A stretch of DNA of 64,000 nucleotides from an uncultured Gammaproteobacteria bacterium (GCA_964633905.1 CAZWIT010000001.1:141861-205860), one strand, 5' to 3'. Counted from the stretch's first letter, positions 27,955 through 36,605 are shown. The notes: generated by a model not told the origin, from the letters alone. Made by a program: numbers and translations.

Positions 27955-28094
27955 ATTTTTATAAATTTAAATGCTTAGAGCTTTATTAATTTTAGTTTAG
28001 CATAATTTTAAGATTAGAAAAAATTTTTTTAATTGGTTTGACTTTTAAAGTTTAAAATAGGATAATAAAGACAGTTTTTGTCTAGAAAAGCATT

Positions 28095-28637
28095 ATGGAT
28101 AGCTCAAATTTAGTCATAGAATCACCAAATCTAGTAATTAAAGCTATTGGTCTTGATTATGCTCCTGATATTTTCAAAGAGTTTACTCCAGAGATTACAC
28201 GTTATATGTCCCCCAAGCCAGCGGAAAATATTGAAGAAACTAGAGCTTTTATCGAAAGTTCAATTAAATCTAATCAAGCTGGTACAGATTTTCAAGCTGT
28301 AATTATTAGTAAAGACACTAAAGAGTTTATCGGTCTTACTGGTTTGCATCATATTGACATTCCTCATCCTGAGTTTGGAGTTTGGGTCAAAAAGTCTGCT
28401 CATGGTCACGGCTATGGTAAAGAAGCGATTCTAGCTATGAAGACCTGGGCTGATCAAAATCTTGATTATGAATATTTAGTTTATCCAGTTGATAAAGCTA
28501 ATATTGCTAGTTGCCGTATTCCAGAAGCTATGGGCGGTAAAGTATTTAAAGAGCGCAATGATGTTGGGATGGGTGGCAATAAATTAAATATTGTGGAGTA
28601 TAGGGTGTATAAAAAAAGTTATAAGTTAAAAGTGTAA
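28095..28637 (+). CDS. GNAT family N-acetyltransferase
   Basis: 180 aa; acetyl-CoA binding motif region (HGHGYGKEA). Confidence 0.65.
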   Translation: MDSSNLVIESPNLVIKAIGLDYAPDIFKEFTPEITRYMSPKPAENIEETRAFIESSIKSNQAGTDFQAVIISKDTKEFIGLTGLHHIDIPHPEFGVWVKKSAHGHGYGKEAILAMKTWADQNLDYEYLVYPVDKANIASCRIPEAMGGKVFKERNDVGMGGNKLNIVEYRVYKKSYKLKV

Positions 28638-28655
28638 AGTTAAAAGAAATAAAAT

Positions 28656-30233
28656 ATGTCTGAAGAACAAAAAAGATTATTAGAAAAACAGCTTTGGAAG
28701 GTTGCTGATGTTTTACGTGGCAAAATGCATGCCGATGAATATAAAAACTATATTCTCGGTTTTATTTTTTATAAATATCTTTCTGAAAAATTAGAGCTTT
28801 TTGTAAACGATAAATTATTAGCTAGTGAAAAATTTATTTTTTCTGAGATTAAAGAAGATACTAAGCTTGGTAAAGAAAATCTCAGGCATATCGAAATTGC
28901 TTGTACTGATCAGCTAGGATTTTTTCTAAGACCAACGGAGCTTTTTTCTTATTTAGTTAAAAAGGGTAAAGGTGAGATTAAAGGCGAAGAATCTTTTATT
29001 TTGGAAGATCTTAAAAATGTTTTAAACGATATAGAAAAGACTTCGGATGGTACAGCTAGCGAGGATGATTTTAAGGGTTTATTTGATGATATGGACCTTA
29101 CTTCTTCTAAACTCGGTTCTCGTGAAAGTGATAAAAATGAAGTTGTAGTTGAGATACTCAGTTTACTCAGTGGTATCGATTTTAAACTTAAGGATTCAAA
29201 AAGCGATTTACTTGGCGATGCTTATGAATATTTGATCGGTGAATTTGCGGCTGGTGCTGGTAAAAAGGGTGGTGAATTTTATACACCTGCTCAAGTATCA
29301 CGCTTACTAGCTCAAATTGTTTCTGTAGATAAAAAACGTATCAAATCAGTCTATGATGCCGCTTGTGGTTCTGGTTCGCTTTTGTTGCGTCTAGGTGAGT
29401 TTACTGATGTAGTCAATTATTATGGGCAAGAGCTCAATCCAACTACTTATAACTTGGCTCGTATGAATATGATCTTGCATGGCGTGCACTTTGATCATTT
29501 TTCCATCCGCCAAGGTGATACACTCCGAGAGGATATGCACCCTGATTTGAAGGCTGAAGCTATAGTCGCTAATCCACCATTTGCTGCTCAATGGAAAGGA
29601 GATACGGATCCAGCTTTAGCGCATGATGATCGTTTTTCTCAATATGGTCGGTTAGCGCCAAAGAGCGCGGCTGATTATGCTTTTGTTACTCACATGCTTT
29701 ATCATCTGGCTGACAATGGTACTATGGCAATTGTCTTACCTCATGGTGCACTTTTCCGTTCTGGTGCTGAGGGACATATCCGTAAGTATATTATAGAAAA
29801 ACAAAATTATCTTGATGCGGTGATAGGATTGCCGGCCAATTTGTTTTATGGCACTTCTATTCCAGCTACTGTTTTAGTGTTTAAGAAATGCCGTCGTGAG
29901 GATGAAGATATTTTATTTATTGATGCTTCCAAAGAATTTGAAAAAGTAGGTAATCAAAATAATCTTAGTGACGAAAATATTGCCAAGATTTTTGATACTT
30001 ATAAAAATCGTAAAGAAATAGCCAAATATTCCCACAAAGCTTCTTTAGCTGAAATCAAGGAAAATGAATATAATCTCAATATTCCACGTTATGTAGATAC
30101 TTTTGAAGAAGAGGAATTGGTAGACATTGGTCAAGTTGCAAAAGATTTGAAAGATTTATCTAAGCAAGAAGTAGATTTGCAAAATAAAATAGCAGAATTT
30201 TGTGAAGAATTAAAAATAGATAAGCCTTTTTAG
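28656..30233 (+). CDS. hsdM: type I restriction-modification system, methyltransferase subunit
   Basis: 525 aa; HsdM N-terminal domain, motif I DAACGSGS, motif IV NPPF. Confidence 0.9.
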   Translation: MSEEQKRLLEKQLWKVADVLRGKMHADEYKNYILGFIFYKYLSEKLELFVNDKLLASEKFIFSEIKEDTKLGKENLRHIEIACTDQLGFFLRPTELFSYLVKKGKGEIKGEESFILEDLKNVLNDIEKTSDGTASEDDFKGLFDDMDLTSSKLGSRESDKNEVVVEILSLLSGIDFKLKDSKSDLLGDAYEYLIGEFAAGAGKKGGEFYTPAQVSRLLAQIVSVDKKRIKSVYDAACGSGSLLLRLGEFTDVVNYYGQELNPTTYNLARMNMILHGVHFDHFSIRQGDTLREDMHPDLKAEAIVANPPFAAQWKGDTDPALAHDDRFSQYGRLAPKSAADYAFVTHMLYHLADNGTMAIVLPHGALFRSGAEGHIRKYIIEKQNYLDAVIGLPANLFYGTSIPATVLVFKKCRREDEDILFIDASKEFEKVGNQNNLSDENIAKIFDTYKNRKEIAKYSHKASLAEIKENEYNLNIPRYVDTFEEEELVDIGQVAKDLKDLSKQEVDLQNKIAEFCEELKIDKPF

Positions 30234-30238
30234 CTACT

Positions 30239-30868
30239 ATGTCTTATATATTTTTGGATGAAAGTGGAGATTTAGGGTTTAAGCCGACGTCAAGCAAGTG
30301 GTTTATTTTTACTATTGTTTTGGCTAGCCACCACAAAAAGATAGAAAAAGTTATTAAAAATATTAGAAAGAGCTTAAAAAAGAAATATAAAATAAAAGAA
30401 TTACACGCTTATCATGCAGATCCGCTTACTAGGCATAGGATGCTAAAAAATTTAGCCGAGCTGGAAGATTTGAAAGTACTTTGTGTTATTTTGAATAAGA
30501 AAAAAGTTTATACTGATTTACAGAATCAAAAAAATTATTTATACAATTATACGGCTAATATTTTGTTAGATCGTTTGCATAATAAAAAATTAATTAAAAC
30601 AGATGAGCCAATAAATTTGTATATTGATAAAAAAGATACTAACAAATTTATTAGGAATAATTTTCAAAAATATTTAGAAGATAATCTTTTAAAAAGAGGT
30701 AATAGTGGTAAGATTGAAATAAAAATAAAAGCCTCGCATACAGAAAAGTGTTTGCAAGCAGTTGATTTTGTAAGCTGGGCTATTTTTAGAAAATACGAAA
30801 AAAACGATTATGAATATTATAATGATATCAAAGATAAGATTATAGAAGAAAATTTATTGTTTTCTTAA
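30239..30868 (+). CDS. DUF3800-family protein embedded in R-M operon
   Basis: 209 aa; N-terminus MSYIFLDESGDLGF characteristic of DUF3800. Confidence 0.55.
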   Translation: MSYIFLDESGDLGFKPTSSKWFIFTIVLASHHKKIEKVIKNIRKSLKKKYKIKELHAYHADPLTRHRMLKNLAELEDLKVLCVILNKKKVYTDLQNQKNYLYNYTANILLDRLHNKKLIKTDEPINLYIDKKDTNKFIRNNFQKYLEDNLLKRGNSGKIEIKIKASHTEKCLQAVDFVSWAIFRKYEKNDYEYYNDIKDKIIEENLLFS

Positions 30869-31045
30869 AAAGAAAACCCCCTGCTTTGACGAGACGCCTT
30901 ACGGTATCTCAACGCAGGAGGAATTACATCTATTTATAATATACATAAATTGTTTAATCTTGTCAACATAAGATTATAAGATTATAAATTTATAACTAAT
31001 ATAAGATAAAATTAATATATAGTCTGGGAATAATAGTGTTAAAAT

Positions 31046-32221
31046 ATGTTAAATAAGCATAATAAAATAAATATTAAAAACAACGTCCCCAAACTCCGTT
31101 TTCCGGGTTTTTCTGGTGAGTGGGGTGAGAAAAGATTAGGCGATTGTTTAGATTATGAACAACCAACAAATTATATTGTTCATAGTACAGAATATAATGA
31201 TTCTTATAAAACTCCCGTATTGACAGCTGGTAAAAGCTTCATTCTTGGCTACACAAATGAAGAGGATGATATTTTTGATAATTTACCAGTTATTATATTT
31301 GATGATTTTACAACTGCCTCTCAATTTGTTGATTTTCCATTTAAGGTTAAATCTTCAGCTATGAAAATTTTAAAACCAAAAGATAGATTGGACATTAGAT
31401 TTATTTTTGGTGCAATGAGTCAAATAAAATATAAAATTGGTGGTCATGGTCGACATTGGATTTCAAAATATTCAAATATAAAATTTTTTATACCAAATAA
31501 TAACAAAGAACAACAGAAAATCGCTGAATTTTTAGGGTCAATTGATGAATGGATAGAAAATCTAAAAAATCAAAAAAAATCTTTTGAAGCTTATAAAAAA
31601 GGCTTGATGCAAAAAATATTCTCACAAGAAATAAGATTTAAAGATGATAGCGGCAAGGATTTTCCGAAGTGGGAGGAAAAGAGGTTGGGAGATACAGGGG
31701 AAGTAATTACTGGCTCTACACCGCCAACAGCTAATAAAGAGTATTATAATGGTACTTTTCCATGGATAACACCTACGGATATAAATCATTCTAAAAATAT
31801 TTATTCGTCAGCAAAACTTTTGACGAAAAAGGGGTTAAGTGTAGCTCGTTTAATCCCTAAAAATAGTTTATTAGTCACCTGTATTGCGAGTATTGGTAAA
31901 AATGTAATTTTAAGATTAGATGGAAGTTGTAATCAGCAGATTAATGCTATTTATCCTAATAAAAATAATGACGTAGATTTTTTATATTATCTTGTAGAGA
32001 AGAATAAAAATATTTTAATAAGGTTCGCTGGTGCTGGTGGGATGCAAATGTTAAACAAGAAGGATTTTTCTAATTTAACTTTTAAAATTCCCACTATTGG
32101 TGAACAACAAAAAATTGCTGAATTTTTAGGCTCAGTTGATAATTTAATAGAGTCAAAAGAGAAACAGGTTAGTCAGGCTGAACAATGGAAAAAGGGGTTG
32201 ATGCAGAGATTGTTTGTATAA
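31046..32221 (+). CDS. hsdS: type I R-M specificity subunit
   Basis: 391 aa; two target-recognition domains each followed by conserved QQKIAEFLGS...L.. KKGLMQ repeat. Confidence 0.85.
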   Translation: MLNKHNKINIKNNVPKLRFPGFSGEWGEKRLGDCLDYEQPTNYIVHSTEYNDSYKTPVLTAGKSFILGYTNEEDDIFDNLPVIIFDDFTTASQFVDFPFKVKSSAMKILKPKDRLDIRFIFGAMSQIKYKIGGHGRHWISKYSNIKFFIPNNNKEQQKIAEFLGSIDEWIENLKNQKKSFEAYKKGLMQKIFSQEIRFKDDSGKDFPKWEEKRLGDTGEVITGSTPPTANKEYYNGTFPWITPTDINHSKNIYSSAKLLTKKGLSVARLIPKNSLLVTCIASIGKNVILRLDGSCNQQINAIYPNKNNDVDFLYYLVEKNKNILIRFAGAGGMQMLNKKDFSNLTFKIPTIGEQQKIAEFLGSVDNLIESKEKQVSQAEQWKKGLMQRLFV

Positions 32222-32227
32222 AAAATT

Positions 32228-33055
32228 ATGACAGAAGAAATTAGACAAAATGAAACTGGTATTTTATTTGATGGATCAAAATTTGAGATAACTCATGACA
32301 TCTTGCCTATTTTTTATTTTTTGAAAGGGATAGAAATCGAGATTGAAAATATTTTGGGGTTTGACAATAAATTAGAAAAATTGAGATCTGGTTATTTAGA
32401 AATTTTTAATTTTACTAAATTTCTTGCAGAAAAATTAAAAGAAAACAACATTAATTTTGAGTACAATTTGAATCACAATTTATTTTCGTTAATGGATGAG
32501 TTTCATTTTAATTCACCGGACAGATCACAGATGATATCTTTATTTGCTAGTTTAGAAGTATTATATTTTTTATATATTTCATATGAGCAAGAGACTAGTA
32601 ATGACGATATTTTAAGAAAAATAGCGATGAGTGAAAAAAAATTTTATAGTAGATTTATCAGGACTTTTCTTTTCACAGATCAAAATCAATATTACTTAGA
32701 AAATAAAGAAAGATTGAATAAGATAGACCCGATAAAGATAAGGAAATTAAGAAACTCATTAACACATTTTTTTTCTTTAGCACCAGGAGGATTATCTATA
32801 GCTCCGAGCAATGAGTATGAAAAAGCAAGGCGTTTAGAAAAAAAATTACAACAGGATAAAAAAGGTTATATAGTTTTTATTTCAACAAAAGATTTGTTTG
32901 AATTAATTAAATTTGCAAACATTTTAATGTTTAAAAAATGGAGCGATGATTTTTTGTTGTCTCCAAATGATTTTCGTAGAAAAATTCAGTATGTTATTAC
33001 TGTAGTTAGGGATAATGGTGCAGTTATTATAATGAATAAAGATTTAAAAATTTAG
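32228..33055 (+). CDS. hypothetical protein, possible HEPN/Abi-like (Rx4H motif RNSLTH) between hsdS and hsdR
   Basis: 275 aa; RKLRNSLTHF matches Rx4-6H HEPN signature; position typical of embedded defence genes. Confidence 0.4.
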   Translation: MTEEIRQNETGILFDGSKFEITHDILPIFYFLKGIEIEIENILGFDNKLEKLRSGYLEIFNFTKFLAEKLKENNINFEYNLNHNLFSLMDEFHFNSPDRSQMISLFASLEVLYFLYISYEQETSNDDILRKIAMSEKKFYSRFIRTFLFTDQNQYYLENKERLNKIDPIKIRKLRNSLTHFFSLAPGGLSIAPSNEYEKARRLEKKLQQDKKGYIVFISTKDLFELIKFANILMFKKWSDDFLLSPNDFRRKIQYVITVVRDNGAVIIMNKDLKI

Positions 33056-33058
33056 TTT

Positions 33059-35860
33059 ATGACACATCAATCAGAACAACAGCTAGAAAAAACATTAATC
33101 GAACAGCTTAAGCGCTTAGGCTTTGCTTCTATTATTTTAGTAGACGAAACTGATTTGATTAGAAATTTACATCAGCAATTAGAGAAATTTAATCAAACTA
33201 AATTTTCAGCTCAAGAGTTTATAAAAATTTTAAATCATATCAATAAAGGTGATCGTTTTTATAAGGCCAAAACTTTACGTGATAGATTTGCTTTGAAACG
33301 GGATGATGATAGTACTTTTTTTGTGCGATTTTTCAATATGGATTATTGGTGTAAAAATGAATATCAAGTTGCTCAACAAATTGTTCAGACTGGTCGCTAT
33401 AAAAATCGTTATGATGTAACTTTGCTAGTCAATGGCCTGCCTTTGGTGCAGGTTGAGCTCAAGCGTCGTGGTATGGAGCTCAAAGAGGCCTTTAATCAAA
33501 TTCAGCGTTATCACAAGCATTCCTTTGCGGGGACTTTTTTTGACTATATTCAGATATTTGTCATCTCTAACGGAGTCAATACAAAATATTTTGCCAACAA
33601 TCCCAAACAAACTTTTGAACAAACATTTTATTGGACCGATATCAATAATAGAAAAATCACCAAGTTAGATGAATTCGCGGAAGTATTTTTGGAAAAATGC
33701 GCAGTATCAGAAATGATTGCTGAATACATAGTATTGGCCGAAGCGACTAAAATTCCCATGGTACTGCGCCCATACCAGTATTATGCAGTCAAAGCTATAG
33801 CTGAGCAAGTGCGTAAATCTGATAGTAATAGCTATATTTGGCATACTACTGGCTCAGGCAAGACACTGACCTCATATAAAACCAGTCAAATATTATCGCG
33901 TATACCAGAAGTAAAAAAAGTACTTTTTGTAGTAGATAGAAAAGATTTGGATATTCAGACCACCAAAGAGTTTAATTCATTTTCCGAAGGATCTGTAGAT
34001 GGCACCAACAATACCAGAAGTTTAGTCAATCAACTCCAAGACAAAAATAGAAAATTGATTGTTACTACCATCCAAAAATTGGATATTGCTATTGGCCGAG
34101 AAATATATTTAAAGAAATTTGAGTATTTGGCTGACGAAAAAGTAGTGATTATTTTTGATGAATGTCATCGTAGTCAATTTGGTCAGACACATGCACGTAT
34201 TAAGGGATTTTTTAGAAAAGCACAGTTATTTGGTTTTACTGGCACACCTATTTTTGCCGATAATAATATTGGTGGGGTAACGACTATGGATGTTTTTGGT
34301 AAATGCCTACATAAGTATGTCATCACCAATGCTATCGCTGATAACAATGTTTTGGGATTTGCTGTTGAATATGTCGGTAAATACAAACAAAAAGATCTAG
34401 ATACTTTGGATGCTGATATTTTTGCCGATGCTATGGTAGAGGGTATTGATACCAAAGAAGTATTAGAAAGCGATGGTCGTTTGCATAAAATTACGGATTA
34501 TATTTTGGCTGATTGGAAGCGGAAAACTAAACAAGGTAAATTCAATGCTTTATTTGCGGTTTCATCTATTGAAGTTTTAAAAAAATATTATACTTTACTC
34601 AAAGCTAAGAAAGCAGATGATTTTTCTATTGCTACTATTTTTACCTATCAAGTAAATGAAAACGAAAGCTCGGATATGCTTGATGTCGATGTTTTTGCTG
34701 ATGAGGGAGCGGCTATCAATAAGCACTCCAGGGACTTTTTAGAGGAATGTATTAAAGACTATAATAAAAAATATCTGACTAATTTTTCTACTGATCGTTT
34801 TTATGATTATTATCGGGATTTACAAAAAAGGATAAAGAACAAAGAAGTTGATCTGACTTTGGTAGTGAATATGTTTTTGACTGGTTTTGACAGTCCTAGA
34901 TTAAATACACTCTACGTAGATAAAAATTTACGCTATCATGGACTTGTTCAGGCTTATTCCAGAACTAATAGGCTATTAAATTCGGATAAACCTCATGGCA
35001 ATATTGTTTCTTTTAGGAATTTAAAAGAAGCTACTGATAGGGCTTTAGCATTGTTTGGCGATGAAAATGCCAAAGAGGTAGTATTTAAGAAGCCGTACGA
35101 AGCACAGAAAAAAGAATTTGATGAAAAGCTATCGGAATTGCGAGATAAAGTGCCGACTGTTGCATCAGTGGACGATCTTCAAGGTGAAGAAAAAAAGGCG
35201 GAATTTGTTAAATCTTTCCGTGATTTATTACGTATTAAATCATCTTTGGAGACCTTTGCTGAATTTTCTTTTAAGGATCTCGGCATAACAGAGCAAGAAT
35301 TTTATGATTATCAGAGCAAATATTTGGATGTTTATGAGGATCGTAAAAATAATAATAGTGATGTTGAATCAATTTTAGATCAGATTGATTTTGAGATAGA
35401 TCTTACTGTACGAGATATTATTAATTTTGATTATATAATTCAACTTATTGCTGGTTTAAAAAATATTAGTTCAGCTGTAGTGCGCAAAAAGAAGACGGAT
35501 GAGATTTTGCAATTATTTGATAGAGATGCTCAAATGCGTAAAAAGAAAGATTTGATCCAGAAATTTATTGAAAAAAATTTACCAAAAATTAGTAAGTCAG
35601 ATGATGTGGAAAAAGCTTTTAGTGAATTTTGGACAAGTGAGCGTTCTGCTAGCTTGAAAAAGATCGCTCAAAAAGAAAAAATTCCTGTAGAGAAATTTGA
35701 ATATCTAATTGGAGAATATTTATATAGTCAGAAATTACCAAATGGACAGGATATTATTGATTTATTACCCGGAGGAATTCCTAGAATTAGAGATAGACAG
35801 GGGATTATCGACAGAATTAAGAGCGCTTTACAAAATATAGTTGATATATTTGAGTGGTAG
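33059..35860 (+). CDS. hsdR: type I restriction enzyme R subunit (SF2 helicase-nuclease)
   Basis: 933 aa; HsdR N-terminal nuclease, Walker A TGSGKT, DECH box (IFDECHRSQ). Confidence 0.9.
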   Translation: MTHQSEQQLEKTLIEQLKRLGFASIILVDETDLIRNLHQQLEKFNQTKFSAQEFIKILNHINKGDRFYKAKTLRDRFALKRDDDSTFFVRFFNMDYWCKNEYQVAQQIVQTGRYKNRYDVTLLVNGLPLVQVELKRRGMELKEAFNQIQRYHKHSFAGTFFDYIQIFVISNGVNTKYFANNPKQTFEQTFYWTDINNRKITKLDEFAEVFLEKCAVSEMIAEYIVLAEATKIPMVLRPYQYYAVKAIAEQVRKSDSNSYIWHTTGSGKTLTSYKTSQILSRIPEVKKVLFVVDRKDLDIQTTKEFNSFSEGSVDGTNNTRSLVNQLQDKNRKLIVTTIQKLDIAIGREIYLKKFEYLADEKVVIIFDECHRSQFGQTHARIKGFFRKAQLFGFTGTPIFADNNIGGVTTMDVFGKCLHKYVITNAIADNNVLGFAVEYVGKYKQKDLDTLDADIFADAMVEGIDTKEVLESDGRLHKITDYILADWKRKTKQGKFNALFAVSSIEVLKKYYTLLKAKKADDFSIATIFTYQVNENESSDMLDVDVFADEGAAINKHSRDFLEECIKDYNKKYLTNFSTDRFYDYYRDLQKRIKNKEVDLTLVVNMFLTGFDSPRLNTLYVDKNLRYHGLVQAYSRTNRLLNSDKPHGNIVSFRNLKEATDRALALFGDENAKEVVFKKPYEAQKKEFDEKLSELRDKVPTVASVDDLQGEEKKAEFVKSFRDLLRIKSSLETFAEFSFKDLGITEQEFYDYQSKYLDVYEDRKNNNSDVESILDQIDFEIDLTVRDIINFDYIIQLIAGLKNISSAVVRKKKTDEILQLFDRDAQMRKKKDLIQKFIEKNLPKISKSDDVEKAFSEFWTSERSASLKKIAQKEKIPVEKFEYLIGEYLYSQKLPNGQDIIDLLPGGIPRIRDRQGIIDRIKSALQNIVDIFEW

Positions 35861-36428
35861 ATTAAAATATAATATTATGAATAAACTTTGGAGTATACCA
35901 TTAATATCACTTTTTTTCTACTTGGTGACCACAATCACTCAATATGGCTTTAATTCCTATTTTAATATTCCGCCTAGTTTTATTGAAGTTTCTCTTAGGT
36001 ATAATATAGTCTATTTTTATAGACTATTTAATACAGGCATATATCTCGCCGGTATAATGAAATGGTGGATTTGGGTAGTTATTGTTTTTTCAATACTTAT
36101 AGTAGTATTTTTGTATAATTTTAGTTCCTTGCTTTCTAAATTTTTGAGATATATTTTTGTATTTATTTTATTAATTATCGTAATAATATCCTATAATTTT
36201 GGTATAGAATTAGCAAAAAATACTAGTGAATTTTATATAGTACCTTCAAGCTGTATTTCCGGAAATGAAAATAATTTGTATATAGCCCCAATATTTTATG
36301 ATAAACACATAATATTTATTTCTATTGATAAAAGTACGAATAGAATAAAGGAAGGTTTAGTTATTAAAGATATTTCAGATTTAAATTGTCCAATAGAATA
36401 TCATAAGATTGAGAAAATAATAAAATAA
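35841..36428 (+). CDS. hypothetical polytopic membrane protein
   Basis: 195 aa; several hydrophobic helices; overlaps hsdR 3' end. Confidence 0.45.
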   Translation: MIYLSGRLKYNIMNKLWSIPLISLFFYLVTTITQYGFNSYFNIPPSFIEVSLRYNIVYFYRLFNTGIYLAGIMKWWIWVVIVFSILIVVFLYNFSSLLSKFLRYIFVFILLIIVIISYNFGIELAKNTSEFYIVPSSCISGNENNLYIAPIFYDKHIIFISIDKSTNRIKEGLVIKDISDLNCPIEYHKIEKIIK

Positions 36429-36434
36429 AATCCC

Positions 36435-36605
36435 ATGCCTTCAAAAATCAACGCCCCCTGGCATCTTAAAAATAAAATGCCTAAAAATCCCACACTTGAT
36501 CAAAGAATAGAGTGGCATTTAGCTCATGCTAAAAATTGTCAGTGCCGGCCCTTGGGTGGTAAAATTTTAGAAGAAATAAAGAAAAGAGGAATAAAATATC
36601 AATAA
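36435..36605 (+). CDS. small ORF (56 aa), speculative
   Basis: ATG just after upstream stop; no SD; contains HLAHAKNCQC. Confidence 0.2.
   Translation: MPSKINAPWHLKNKMPKNPTLDQRIEWHLAHAKNCQCRPLGGKILEEIKKRGIKYQ

What the first reader, a model, noticed from the sequence alone, without database searches (positions are those of the whole stretch)
28656..35860. Type I R-M operon carrying two embedded passenger genes (DUF3800 and an Rx4H HEPN-like protein)
The hsdM, hsdS and hsdR genes are intact. A DUF3800 gene sits between hsdM and hsdS, and a 275-aa protein with an RKLRNSLTHF (Rx4H) motif sits between hsdS and hsdR. The start and stop spacing is tight (6-7 nt), so all five genes are likely cotranscribed. 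Such insertions are typical of defence islands (Abi-like or toxin modules hitch-hiking in R-M loci). The HEPN-like protein is a candidate RNase-based abortive-infection effector.
Basis: partly seen in the sequence, partly recalled or inferred. Interest (0 to 1): 0.6.

Follow-up and report, generated by a model that had tools for sequence, protein, structure and literature searches.

The report
Restriction operon with nuclease passengers and RNA
A bacterial DNA-restriction gene cluster carries two extra, independently acquired modules, a predicted HEPN-type RNA-cutting enzyme and an RNase H-like (DUF3800) gene paired with a previously overlooked small structured RNA; the arrangement is a known kind, but both modules are uncharacterised.

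Summary
hsdM, DUF3800, hsdS, a 275-aa ORF and hsdR lie on one strand at the stated coordinates, and the three hsd genes have full domain sets.

One detail is wrong. The DUF3800-hsdS gap is 177 nt, not 6-7 nt. It holds a convergent small RNA gene (30867-30931, minus strand) with its own near-consensus promoter and a U-tail.

- **The small RNA.** It sits directly after the stop codon of this DUF3800 subfamily in 78 of 80 related loci; the other two are cut by a contig end. Covariation is strong (99.7% of cells paired, 7 pairs with compensatory changes). It matches no Rfam family.
- **Its context.** The family sits beside Type I, II, III and IIG restriction systems. In Type I loci it occupies the slot prrC holds in the prr locus.

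Verdict: two independent accessory modules in a Type IC-like locus. The principle is known; the HEPN-like family and the RNA motif are undescribed members.

The parts
28656..30233 (+). hsdM, the Type I methyltransferase subunit (525 aa)
   Evidence: Pfam HsdM_N + N6_Mtase, E 4e-111. PADLOC MTase_I, E 2e-165. 78-82% identical to HsdM of other loci that carry ORF275.
30239..30868 (+). DUF3800 gene (209 aa), an RNase H2-like predicted nuclease. It has no promoter of its own and starts 5 nt after the hsdM stop.
30867..30931 (-). Small structured RNA gene (about 65 nt), convergent with DUF3800. Its U-tail overlaps the DUF3800 stop codon. Rod-like hairpin with conserved internal loops.
   Evidence: Covariance model hit, 82.9 bits, E 3e-21, the only copy in the window. 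Present directly after the stop codon in 78 of 80 DUF3800 loci; the 2 misses are contig ends. 39 distinct sequences: 99.7% of cells paired against 44-55% in slid controls; 7 pairs and 73 cells with compensatory change. About 14% of cells are G-U, which would be A-C on the + strand. MFE -24.2 kcal/mol, z -3.8. No Rfam family even at E 10.
30938..30966 (-). Promoter of the small RNA (TTGACA, 17 nt, TATATT)
   Evidence: Best promoter match in 28000-36600, 11 of 12. A match of 9 of 12 or better at the same distance (5-8 nt before the RNA 5' end) in 55 of 61 distinct loci, while the spacer sequence varies.
30960..30988 (+). Possible promoter for hsdS-ORF275-hsdR (TTGTCA, 17 nt, TATAAA). Read by eye, inferred only.
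   Evidence: Sequence. Not reported by the scan because the second hexamer ends in A. Not conserved in other loci.
31046..32221 (+). hsdS, the specificity subunit (391 aa, two target-recognition domains)
   Evidence: Pfam Methylase_S, two stretches, E 8e-36. PADLOC Specificity_I, E 7e-75. Internal 50-nt repeat 31508/32102. Only about 33% identical to HsdS of sister loci.
32228..33055 (+). ORF275, an unannotated all-helical protein with an invariant Rx4H motif; a predicted HEPN-type RNase in the same slot prrC holds in the prr locus
32750..32767 (+). RNSLTH, the Rx4H motif (R175 to H180)
   Evidence: Translation. R175 and H180 are the only invariant columns among 31 sequences down to 18-26% identity. 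R175 lies at the end of helix 168-177 and H180 in the following loop.
33059..35860 (+). hsdR, the restriction/translocase subunit (933 aa), Type IC-like
   Evidence: Pfam HSDR_N, SWI2_SNF2, ResIII, T1R_D3-like and EcoR124_C. PADLOC REase_I, E 2e-294.

Best explanation
This is a Type IC-like restriction-modification locus, probably of a Patescibacteria (CPR)-type genome; the organism was not identified. Its two inter-subunit junctions act as slots for accessory defence cargo. Two unrelated modules sit there.

(1) ORF275, between hsdS and hsdR, is a stand-alone, divergent HEPN-type metal-independent RNase. R175 and H180 would be the catalytic pair (inferred). It is expressed with the restriction subunit. 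It most likely acts as a second-line, abortive-infection effector, as PrrC does in the E. coli prr locus: kept latent while the restriction complex is intact, and released when a phage disables restriction (inferred by analogy).

(2) Between hsdM and hsdS sits a cassette of about 730 nt. It comprises a promoterless RNase H2-like DUF3800 gene and a convergent 65-nt structured RNA with its own promoter. The two most likely work as a protein-RNA pair. The RNA would restrain or license the nuclease, like an RNA antitoxin or the msDNA of DUF3800-bearing type VII retrons (inferred).

The RNA hairpin probably also terminates hsdM-DUF3800 transcription, so hsdS-ORF275-hsdR would form a separate unit.

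Shown: gene content, motif conservation, fold of DUF3800, RNA structure and covariation, RNA-gene linkage, promoter conservation, and context statistics.

Inferred: all activities, triggers and regulation.
For: - Domain content of the hsd genes.
- ORF275: R175 and H180 are the only invariant residues across distant homologues, with R99, F106, N153 and F181 at 90% or more.
- ORF275: the residue after the arginine is polar (N176, invariant in the close set), as PMC3710099 describes for HEPN domains in general.
- ORF275: the motif lies at a helix end and loop start in a confident model, as PMC3710099 describes.
- ORF275: the only recurring theme among sub-threshold Pfam hits of members is HEPN families (Cthe2314 0.006, Apea 0.013, Swt1 0.16).
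- ORF275 context: Type I in 6 distinct loci, always between hsdS and hsdR. Also Type III (L014, L022), Type II (L017), Type IIG/ISP-like (L008, L023, L024), a methyltransferase pair (L021), and RhuM neighbours (L011, L018).
- ORF275 identity (37-53%) roughly tracks HsdR identity (73-81%) across sister loci, which suggests long co-residence.
- PMC3710099 documents HEPN genes embedded in R-M operons and the hsdMS-prrC-hsdR model.
- DUF3800: Pfam match, DE/QxxD motifs and RNase HII-like fold.
- RNA.
- DUF3800 genes are known to associate with structured RNAs (PMC5737381) and with retron type VII (PMC7736814).
Against: - No sequence profile links ORF275 to any HEPN family. Foldseek against PDB finds nothing.
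- ORF275 lacks the ABC ATPase that regulates PrrC. It also occurs beside non-Type I systems and in 6 of 20 loci without visible R-M genes (L013, L015, L016, L018, L019, L020), so dependence on the Type I complex is unproven.
- No conserved antitoxin-like partner was found.
- For the cassette: a conserved hairpin after a gene could be mainly a bidirectional terminator.
- ORF275 and the DUF3800 cassette co-occur only in this window, so they are not one system.
Confidence: 0.6

Rival explanations
1. ORF275 is an autonomous abortive-infection or toxin RNase. It merely travels with R-M genes in defence islands and has no functional coupling to the Type I enzyme.
For: The family occurs next to Type II, III and IIG systems, and in 6 of 20 loci without visible R-M genes. 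It has no ATPase or other recognisable sensor domain. Distant members swap the N-terminal region for a SEC-C zinc motif.
Against: In Type I loci it always sits between hsdS and hsdR, abutting hsdR in 4 of 6, with 3-nt spacing or 4-nt overlap. Its divergence roughly tracks that of HsdR. No cognate antitoxin gene is conserved next to it, and an unregulated toxin would need one.
Confidence: 0.3
2. ORF275 is not a nuclease. It is a helical regulatory or adaptor subunit of R-M systems, for example controlling restriction alleviation or assembly. The conserved R and H would serve binding or structure.
For: No profile match to any nuclease family. Fold matches are generic four-helix bundles, including non-catalytic ones. 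PMC3710099 notes non-catalytic HEPN domains such as MtlR.
Against: Across about 20% identity the only invariant residues are exactly an Rx4H dyad with a polar residue after R in the close set. This is the HEPN catalytic signature, not a typical binding interface. Association with mechanistically unrelated R-M types argues against a subunit-specific adaptor.
Confidence: 0.1
3. The conserved element after DUF3800 is only a bidirectional intrinsic terminator plus an outward promoter for the downstream gene. It is not a functional small RNA partner.
For: The hairpin is flanked by an A-run and a U-run, so it could terminate both strands. It sits exactly at the gene's 3' end. TTGTCAA reads as a -35 box in both directions.
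Against: Unpaired positions are invariant across loci whose proteins are only 57-85% identical (the GUUG and AAA internal-loop bases and the 5' UAA), which terminators do not need. The -10 and -35 boxes are conserved, at a fixed distance, for the minus strand only. G-U pairs fit the minus strand only. Linkage is 78 of 78. Two viral contigs carry the RNA without the gene. DUF3800 genes are independently known to pair with structured RNAs (PMC5737381).
Confidence: 0.15

Closest known systems
prr locus of E. coli (EcoprrI hsdM-hsdS-prrC-hsdR with the PrrC anticodon nuclease)
   Same: Type IC-like hsd genes (the EcoR124_C domain in HsdR). An extra gene sits between hsdS and hsdR and carries an Rx4H HEPN-type motif. 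The expected role is second-line defence (PMC3710099).
   Different: ORF275 is 275 aa, with no ABC-ATPase domain and no detectable sequence similarity to PrrC or RloC. The family also sits beside Type II, III and IIG systems. Latency and the activating trigger are untested.
HEPN families embedded in R-M operons (Abi2/AbiD/AbiF, ApeA, AbiU2, Swt1-like, EC042_2821; Anantharaman et al. 2013)
   Same: A small, mostly helical protein with a conserved Rx4-6H motif and a polar residue after R. It is embedded in R-M operons, with RhuM, Fic or PIN genes as co-passengers.
   Different: It matches none of the Pfam models for these families at or above threshold. It has a long N-terminal helix or a SEC-C extension. 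It was found almost only in MAGs, mostly labelled Patescibacteria/CPR.
DUF3800-associated RNA motifs (DUF3800-I to -XI, drum, skipping-rope; Weinberg et al. 2017)
   Same: A structured RNA is strictly linked to a DUF3800 gene. It has a terminator-like 3' end, a conserved UAA, and a function that is still unknown.
   Different: It matches no Rfam 15 model, and Rfam holds at least DUF3800-I and DUF3800-IX. The orientation is fixed and convergent, abutting the stop codon. A conserved promoter is documented. I could not inspect motifs II-XI outside Rfam, so identity with one of them is not excluded.
Type VII retrons (RT + msr/msd + DUF3800 effector) and CRISPR-linked DUF3800 proteins (TPR-DUF3800 with Cas12a2/a3; Csx32 with Cas13)
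   Same: A DUF3800 RNase H2-like protein is paired with a structured nucleic acid or an RNA-guided system in a defence context.
   Different: There is no reverse transcriptase, no CRISPR array and no TPR domain here. The partner is a 65-nt plain RNA.
   Same: A nuclease gene with an adjacent structured RNA that could neutralise it. The possible phage-borne RNA-only copies recall pseudo-ToxI escape.
   Different: The RNA is a single copy, not tandem repeats. It is convergent and downstream rather than upstream on the same strand. The protein fold is RNase H-like, not ToxN-like.

Membership tests
Type I restriction-modification system (Type IC-like) | HsdM with an HsdM_N domain and an N6-adenine methyltransferase domain | tested here: met
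   PF12161 and PF02384, E 1e-20 and 4e-111.
Type I restriction-modification system (Type IC-like) | HsdS with two target-recognition domains and conserved repeats | tested here: met
   Two Methylase_S stretches. 50-nt internal repeat.
Type I restriction-modification system (Type IC-like) | HsdR with an N-terminal nuclease, an SF2 motor and an EcoR124-type C-terminal domain | tested here: met
   HSDR_N, SWI2_SNF2/ResIII, T1R_D3-like and EcoR124_C, all with E below 1e-35.
HEPN superfamily | Conserved Rx4-6H motif with a polar residue after R | tested here: met
   R175-N-S-L-T-H180. R and H are invariant in A1 and A2; N176 is invariant in A1.
HEPN superfamily | Motif at the end of a core helix and the start of the following loop (PMC3710099) | tested here: met
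   Helix 168-177, then coil, in a model with pLDDT 86. Description quoted.
HEPN superfamily | Four-helix up-down bundle superposable on solved HEPN domains | tested here: inconclusive
HEPN superfamily | Significant profile match to a described HEPN family | tested here: not met
   No Pfam hit at E 10 for the window protein. Only sub-threshold single-member hits among relatives. No PDB sequence hit.
HEPN superfamily | Metal-independent endoribonuclease activity | not testable with these tools
   Needs biochemistry.
PrrC/RloC anticodon nucleases | N-terminal ABC/Rad50-like ATPase fused to the HEPN domain | tested here: not met
   275 aa, with no ATPase domain in Pfam, NCBIfam or PADLOC.
PrrC/RloC anticodon nucleases | Gene located between hsdS and hsdR of a Type IC system (PrrC) | tested here: met
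   the same holds in sister loci.
PrrC/RloC anticodon nucleases | Latency through binding to the R-M complex, and activation by a phage anti-restriction factor | not testable with these tools
   Needs experiments.
DUF3800 (PF12686) | Pfam match above the gathering score, with N-terminal DE and C-terminal QxxD | tested here: met
   68 bits against a cut-off of 21. E8, Q173 and D176 invariant; D7 at 90% or more.
DUF3800 (PF12686) | RNase H (type 2)-like fold | tested here: met
DUF3800-associated RNA motifs (Weinberg 2017 / Rfam) | Structured RNA, supported by covariation, adjacent to DUF3800 genes | tested here: met
DUF3800-associated RNA motifs (Weinberg 2017 / Rfam) | Match to one of the published models | tested here: not met
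   No Rfam 15 hit at E 10 on the window element or at E 5 on five other loci. Motifs not deposited in Rfam could not be checked.
Type III toxin-antitoxin | Tandem RNA repeats upstream of the toxin on the same strand | tested here: not met
   A single convergent copy downstream.

The most novel reading that the evidence does not exclude
The DUF3800 gene and its 65-nt convergent RNA form a minimal, self-contained two-part system: an RNase H2-like nuclease gated or guided by a dedicated structured RNA. It spreads as a promoterless cassette of about 730 nt through Patescibacteria-type genomes, often into R-M loci. Phage-borne RNA-only copies would act as decoys. This would give the first mechanistic handle on the whole class of DUF3800-associated RNAs, whose function has been unexplained since 2017. 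ORF275 would separately define a new HEPN clade that senses failure of restriction across Types I-III.
Probability: 0.3. Interest if true: 0.75.

Novelty: new member of a known kind. Interest (0 to 1): 0.5.

Why it matters
HEPN RNases embedded in restriction operons, and DUF3800 genes paired with structured RNAs, are both established themes. Neither specific module here is described in the libraries searched.

ORF275 is a compact, ATPase-less occupant of the same slot prrC holds in the prr locus. It recurs beside four classes of restriction system. It is therefore a clean test case for how a latent RNase is coupled to restriction failure.

The DUF3800-RNA cassette is unusually tractable. It pairs a 209-aa protein with a 65-nt RNA whose promoter, ends and base pairs are defined by comparative data. 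It could answer what DUF3800-associated RNAs do, which also bears on type VII retrons and on Cas12a2/a3- and Cas13-linked DUF3800 proteins.

It also corrects the operon model: the locus is probably two transcription units with an antisense-oriented RNA gene between them.

Tried and rejected
- **Profile scans of ORF275.** Pfam, PADLOC and NCBIfam gave nothing, even at E 10. Profile searches of A1 and A2 against PDB sequences gave only chance-level hits: PP2A activator at E 0.7, and a DpdA segment 'RLRYFRNGMKHFFRLP' at E 1.1.
- **Fold searches of ORF275.** Foldseek against PDB gave only BAR-domain or coiled-coil noise. The afdb50 library was unavailable.
- **DinB-like metalloenzyme reading.** Rejected: the family has a single invariant His, not the conserved His triad I recall as typical of DinB-like proteins (from memory, not checked here).
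- **A conserved partner or antitoxin for ORF275.** None found. Embedded neighbours are unrelated to one another, apart from one homologous pair (L019/L020).
- **Phage origin of ORF275.** No relative in IMG/VR with the patterns used.
- **Rfam identity of the RNA.** None. The supplement of PMC5737381 is not held.
- **Positive control.** Viral loci with distant DUF3800 genes yielded no DUF3800 Rfam motif and no R1 hit, so they gave no positive control.
- **Cassette mobility.** The two copies on one contig (L072/L073) lie in a duplication of at least 7.3 kb at 100% identity, which is uninformative for cassette ends. No flanking repeats surround either insert in the window.
- **Source organism.** The cluster look-up gave no name, and the contig look-up gave only a run accession.


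Full report
**1. Observation**

The six-frame ORF list reproduces the five genes at the stated coordinates, all on the + strand.

- HsdM (28656-30233) has HsdM_N and N6_Mtase domains.
- HsdS (31046-32221) has two Methylase_S stretches.
- HsdR (33059-35860) has HSDR_N, SWI2_SNF2/ResIII, T1R_D3-like and EcoR124_C domains.
- The 209-aa ORF (30239-30868) is a clear DUF3800 member (PF12686, 68 bits against a cut-off of 21).

The EcoR124_C domain places the enzyme with Type IC-like systems.

Spacers are 5, 177, 6 and 3 nt. G+C falls to 0.27-0.29 across 30-33 kb, against 0.31-0.38 for the rest of hsdM and hsdR.

**2. The 177-nt gap holds a small RNA gene**

I fetched 80 metagenomic loci that encode close relatives of this DUF3800 protein (56-85% identity). 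Every one with sequence after the stop codon shows the same G+C-rich element of about 60 nt.

On the minus strand the region reads as follows:
- a -35/-10 promoter, TTGACA-17-TATATT in the window;
- 5-8 nt further on, AGAAGUAAR;
- then a long hairpin;
- then a U-run that overlaps the DUF3800 stop codon.

The promoter is the best sigma-70 match in 28000-36600 (11 of 12). A match of 9 of 12 or better lies at the same place in 55 of 61 distinct loci, while the spacer sequence drifts. In at least three of the exceptions (L036, L037, L039) an insertion lies between promoter and RNA.

The structure was tested on 39 distinct sequences:
- 99.7% of cells form standard pairs, against 44-55% when partners are slid.
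- 7 of 15 pairs show compensatory changes, in 73 cells.
- 0 of 500 shuffles reach the observed covariation score.

RNAalifold adds a covarying closing pair (G-C in 21 sequences, A-U in 13). It also pairs the 5' leader with the 3' tail.

About 14% of cells are G-U. On the + strand these would be A-C mismatches, so the minus strand is the functional one. Unpaired bases (GUUG, AAA, UAA) are invariant, which argues for more than a terminator. The window RNA alone folds at -24.2 kcal/mol, z -3.8.

A covariance model (R1) gave these results:
- one copy in the window, at 30867-30931 on the minus strand, 82.9 bits;
- none in 19 loci that carry ORF275 but no DUF3800;
- one copy directly after the stop codon in 78 of 80 DUF3800 loci; the two misses are contig ends.

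No Rfam 15 family matches, even at E 10. Rfam does hold DUF3800-I and DUF3800-IX. Weinberg et al. reported 11 structurally unrelated RNA motifs linked to DUF3800 genes, function unknown (PMC5737381). This element belongs to that class. It is either a twelfth motif or one of II-XI that is not in Rfam; I could not check.

**3. The DUF3800 cassette**

- **Its boundaries.** Nucleotide conservation starts exactly at the ATG, with nothing conserved upstream. It ends at the RNA's -35 box. The unit is therefore a promoterless cassette of about 730 nt.
- **Where it sits.** It lies 1-5 nt behind an upstream gene in many loci and 100-470 nt behind in others. In the 96 flanking proteins scanned, the families matched by most members are restriction-modification ones: HsdM 7, HsdS 5, N6_N4 methyltransferase 3 and DpnI 2; Fic (3) and RhuM (1) also occur. 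It also sits among housekeeping genes. Within hsd loci it occupies different positions: after hsdM, after hsdR or before hsdM.
- **Possible RNA-only copies.** Two IMG/VR contigs carry weaker copies of the RNA (53-56 bits) without a detectable DUF3800 gene. One begins about 10 nt after a tRNA 3' end. This is a lead for phage decoys or for integration remnants; I did not resolve it.

**4. ORF275**

It has no hit in Pfam, PADLOC or NCBIfam. The word-indexed search found 37 relatives, and the exhaustive profile search found 224 cluster representatives.

- **Conservation.** Among close relatives 19 columns are invariant, including R172, R175, N176, L178, T179, H180 and F181. Among 31 sequences reaching 18-26% identity, only R175 and H180 stay invariant; R99, F106, N153 and F181 are at 90% or more.
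- **Variable N-terminus.** Distant members match only positions about 90-265, which is the core domain. Nine of 31 replace the N-terminus with a SEC-C zinc motif.
- **Model.** The AF2 model is confident (pLDDT 86, pTM 0.82) and mostly helical. R175 ends helix 168-177 and H180 lies in the following loop. Anantharaman et al. place the Rx4-6H motif exactly there (PMC3710099).

I therefore rate the HEPN assignment as probable (about 0.75) but not proven. Membership in any named HEPN family is not met.

**5. Context of ORF275**

I examined 20 distinct loci.

- **Type I (six loci).** Window, L001, L003, L006, L010 and L011 are Type IC-like hsd loci of one lineage (HsdM 78-82% and HsdR 73-81% identical). 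The gene always lies between hsdS and hsdR. In four of the six it abuts hsdR; in L006 and L011 a further gene lies between them.
- **Other R-M types.** Two loci are Type III (L014 Mod-Res-X; L022 X-Res). One is Type II (L017: TdeIII endonuclease plus two methyltransferases). Three are Type IIG/ISP-like (L008, L023, L024; the last also has an AbiU2 HEPN neighbour).
- **Looser links.** L021 has a methyltransferase pair. L005 is a Type II island.
- **No visible R-M gene.** Six loci, though L018 has RhuM and a TOTE-type helicase nearby.

ORF275 identity (37-53%) falls roughly in step with HsdR identity. This suggests long co-residence with faster evolution.

The same two slots of this hsd lineage hold other cargo elsewhere: a 115-aa ORF, DUF6680, PIN_12, RhuM and several unknowns. 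Related hsd loci lack ORF275 altogether (L056, L097). ORF275 and the DUF3800 cassette co-occur only here, so they are independent modules.

**6. Mechanism**

Shown:
- a Type IC-like R-M system whose three subunits have full domain sets;
- an Rx4H protein sitting where prrC sits in the prr locus;
- an RNase H2-like gene with an obligate convergent RNA.

Inferred:
- ORF275 is a metal-independent RNase that acts as a back-up abortive-infection effector. It may be held in check by the R-M complex, as in the PrrC/EcoprrI model summarised in PMC3710099. I put RNase at about 0.7 and R-M-coupled latency at about 0.35.
- The small RNA binds DUF3800 and restrains or licenses it, about 0.4. This is by analogy with RNA antitoxins and with msDNA in DUF3800-bearing type VII retrons.
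- The hairpin ends hsdM-DUF3800 transcription, and a weak TTGTCA-17-TATAAA promoter (30960-30988, read by eye) restarts hsdS-ORF275-hsdR.

**7. Novelty and verdict**

The principle, nuclease passengers inside R-M operons, has been known since 2011-2013. DUF3800-RNA pairing has been known since 2017.

New here:
- an unannotated HEPN-like family, found in MAGs that are mostly labelled Patescibacteria/CPR and linked to four R-M types;
- an RNA motif absent from Rfam, with its strand, promoter, ends and structure defined;
- the corrected operon architecture.

I class it as a new member of a known kind, of moderate interest (0.5). The main upside is the experimental tractability of the DUF3800-RNA pair.

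Noticed in passing
window 30867-30966 (minus strand): A convergent small RNA gene with its own promoter lies in the DUF3800-hsdS gap. It is strictly linked to this DUF3800 subfamily (78 of 78 loci with sequence after the stop codon) and is absent from Rfam.
   Followed up: yes
L106 826-890 and L107 598-662 (IMG/VR contigs): Weaker copies of the same RNA (53-56 bits) lie in viral contigs with no detectable DUF3800 gene. The L106 copy starts about 10 nt after a tRNA 3' end. They could be phage decoys or integration remnants.
   Followed up: partly
L072 and L073 (contig JGI1356J14229_10000004, 126-139 kb and 332-345 kb): Two segments at least 7.3 kb long and 100% identical lie 206 kb apart on one 621-kb contig. 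Each contains the DUF3800-RNA cassette. This is either a large duplication or an assembly artefact.
   Followed up: partly
P0159, P0167, P0171, P0174, P0175 and others (distant ORF275 homologues): Nine of 31 distant family members carry an N-terminal SEC-C zinc-binding motif in place of the long N-terminal helix of the window protein.
   Followed up: partly
L001, L003, L006, L011 (sister hsd loci): The same hsd lineage carries different cargo in the same two junctions. The M/S slot holds a 115-aa ORF, DUF6680 or a 321-aa ORF. The S/R slot holds PIN_12, a 269-aa ORF, RhuM or a 338-aa ORF. The junctions behave as cargo hotspots.
   Followed up: partly
window 31508-31557 and 32102-32151: A 50-nt direct repeat (84% identical) inside hsdS matches the two conserved HsdS regions (EQQKIAEFLGS). 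This is the usual substrate for target-recognition-domain shuffling.
   Followed up: no
window 35841-36428 (called as 35877-36428 in L105): A hydrophobic ORF of 183-195 aa with no family match lies directly after, or overlaps, the end of hsdR. It is not conserved after hsdR in sister loci.
   Followed up: no
window 28095-28637: A GNAT acetyltransferase gene ends 18 nt before hsdM and is preceded by a good promoter match (28038-28066). It may be cotranscribed with hsdM-DUF3800.
   Followed up: no
L024 9220-9870: In one Type IIG locus, ORF275's relative sits directly after a second HEPN-type gene (AbiU2-like, E 5e-5, below the Pfam cut-off).
   Followed up: no
L019 1061-1939 and L020 8490-9314: The gene just upstream of the ORF275 relative in L019 and the gene two upstream of it in L020 (a DUF4760 gene lies between) are homologous to each other (78% identity) and have no Pfam match. 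This may be a partner specific to a sub-clade.
   Followed up: no
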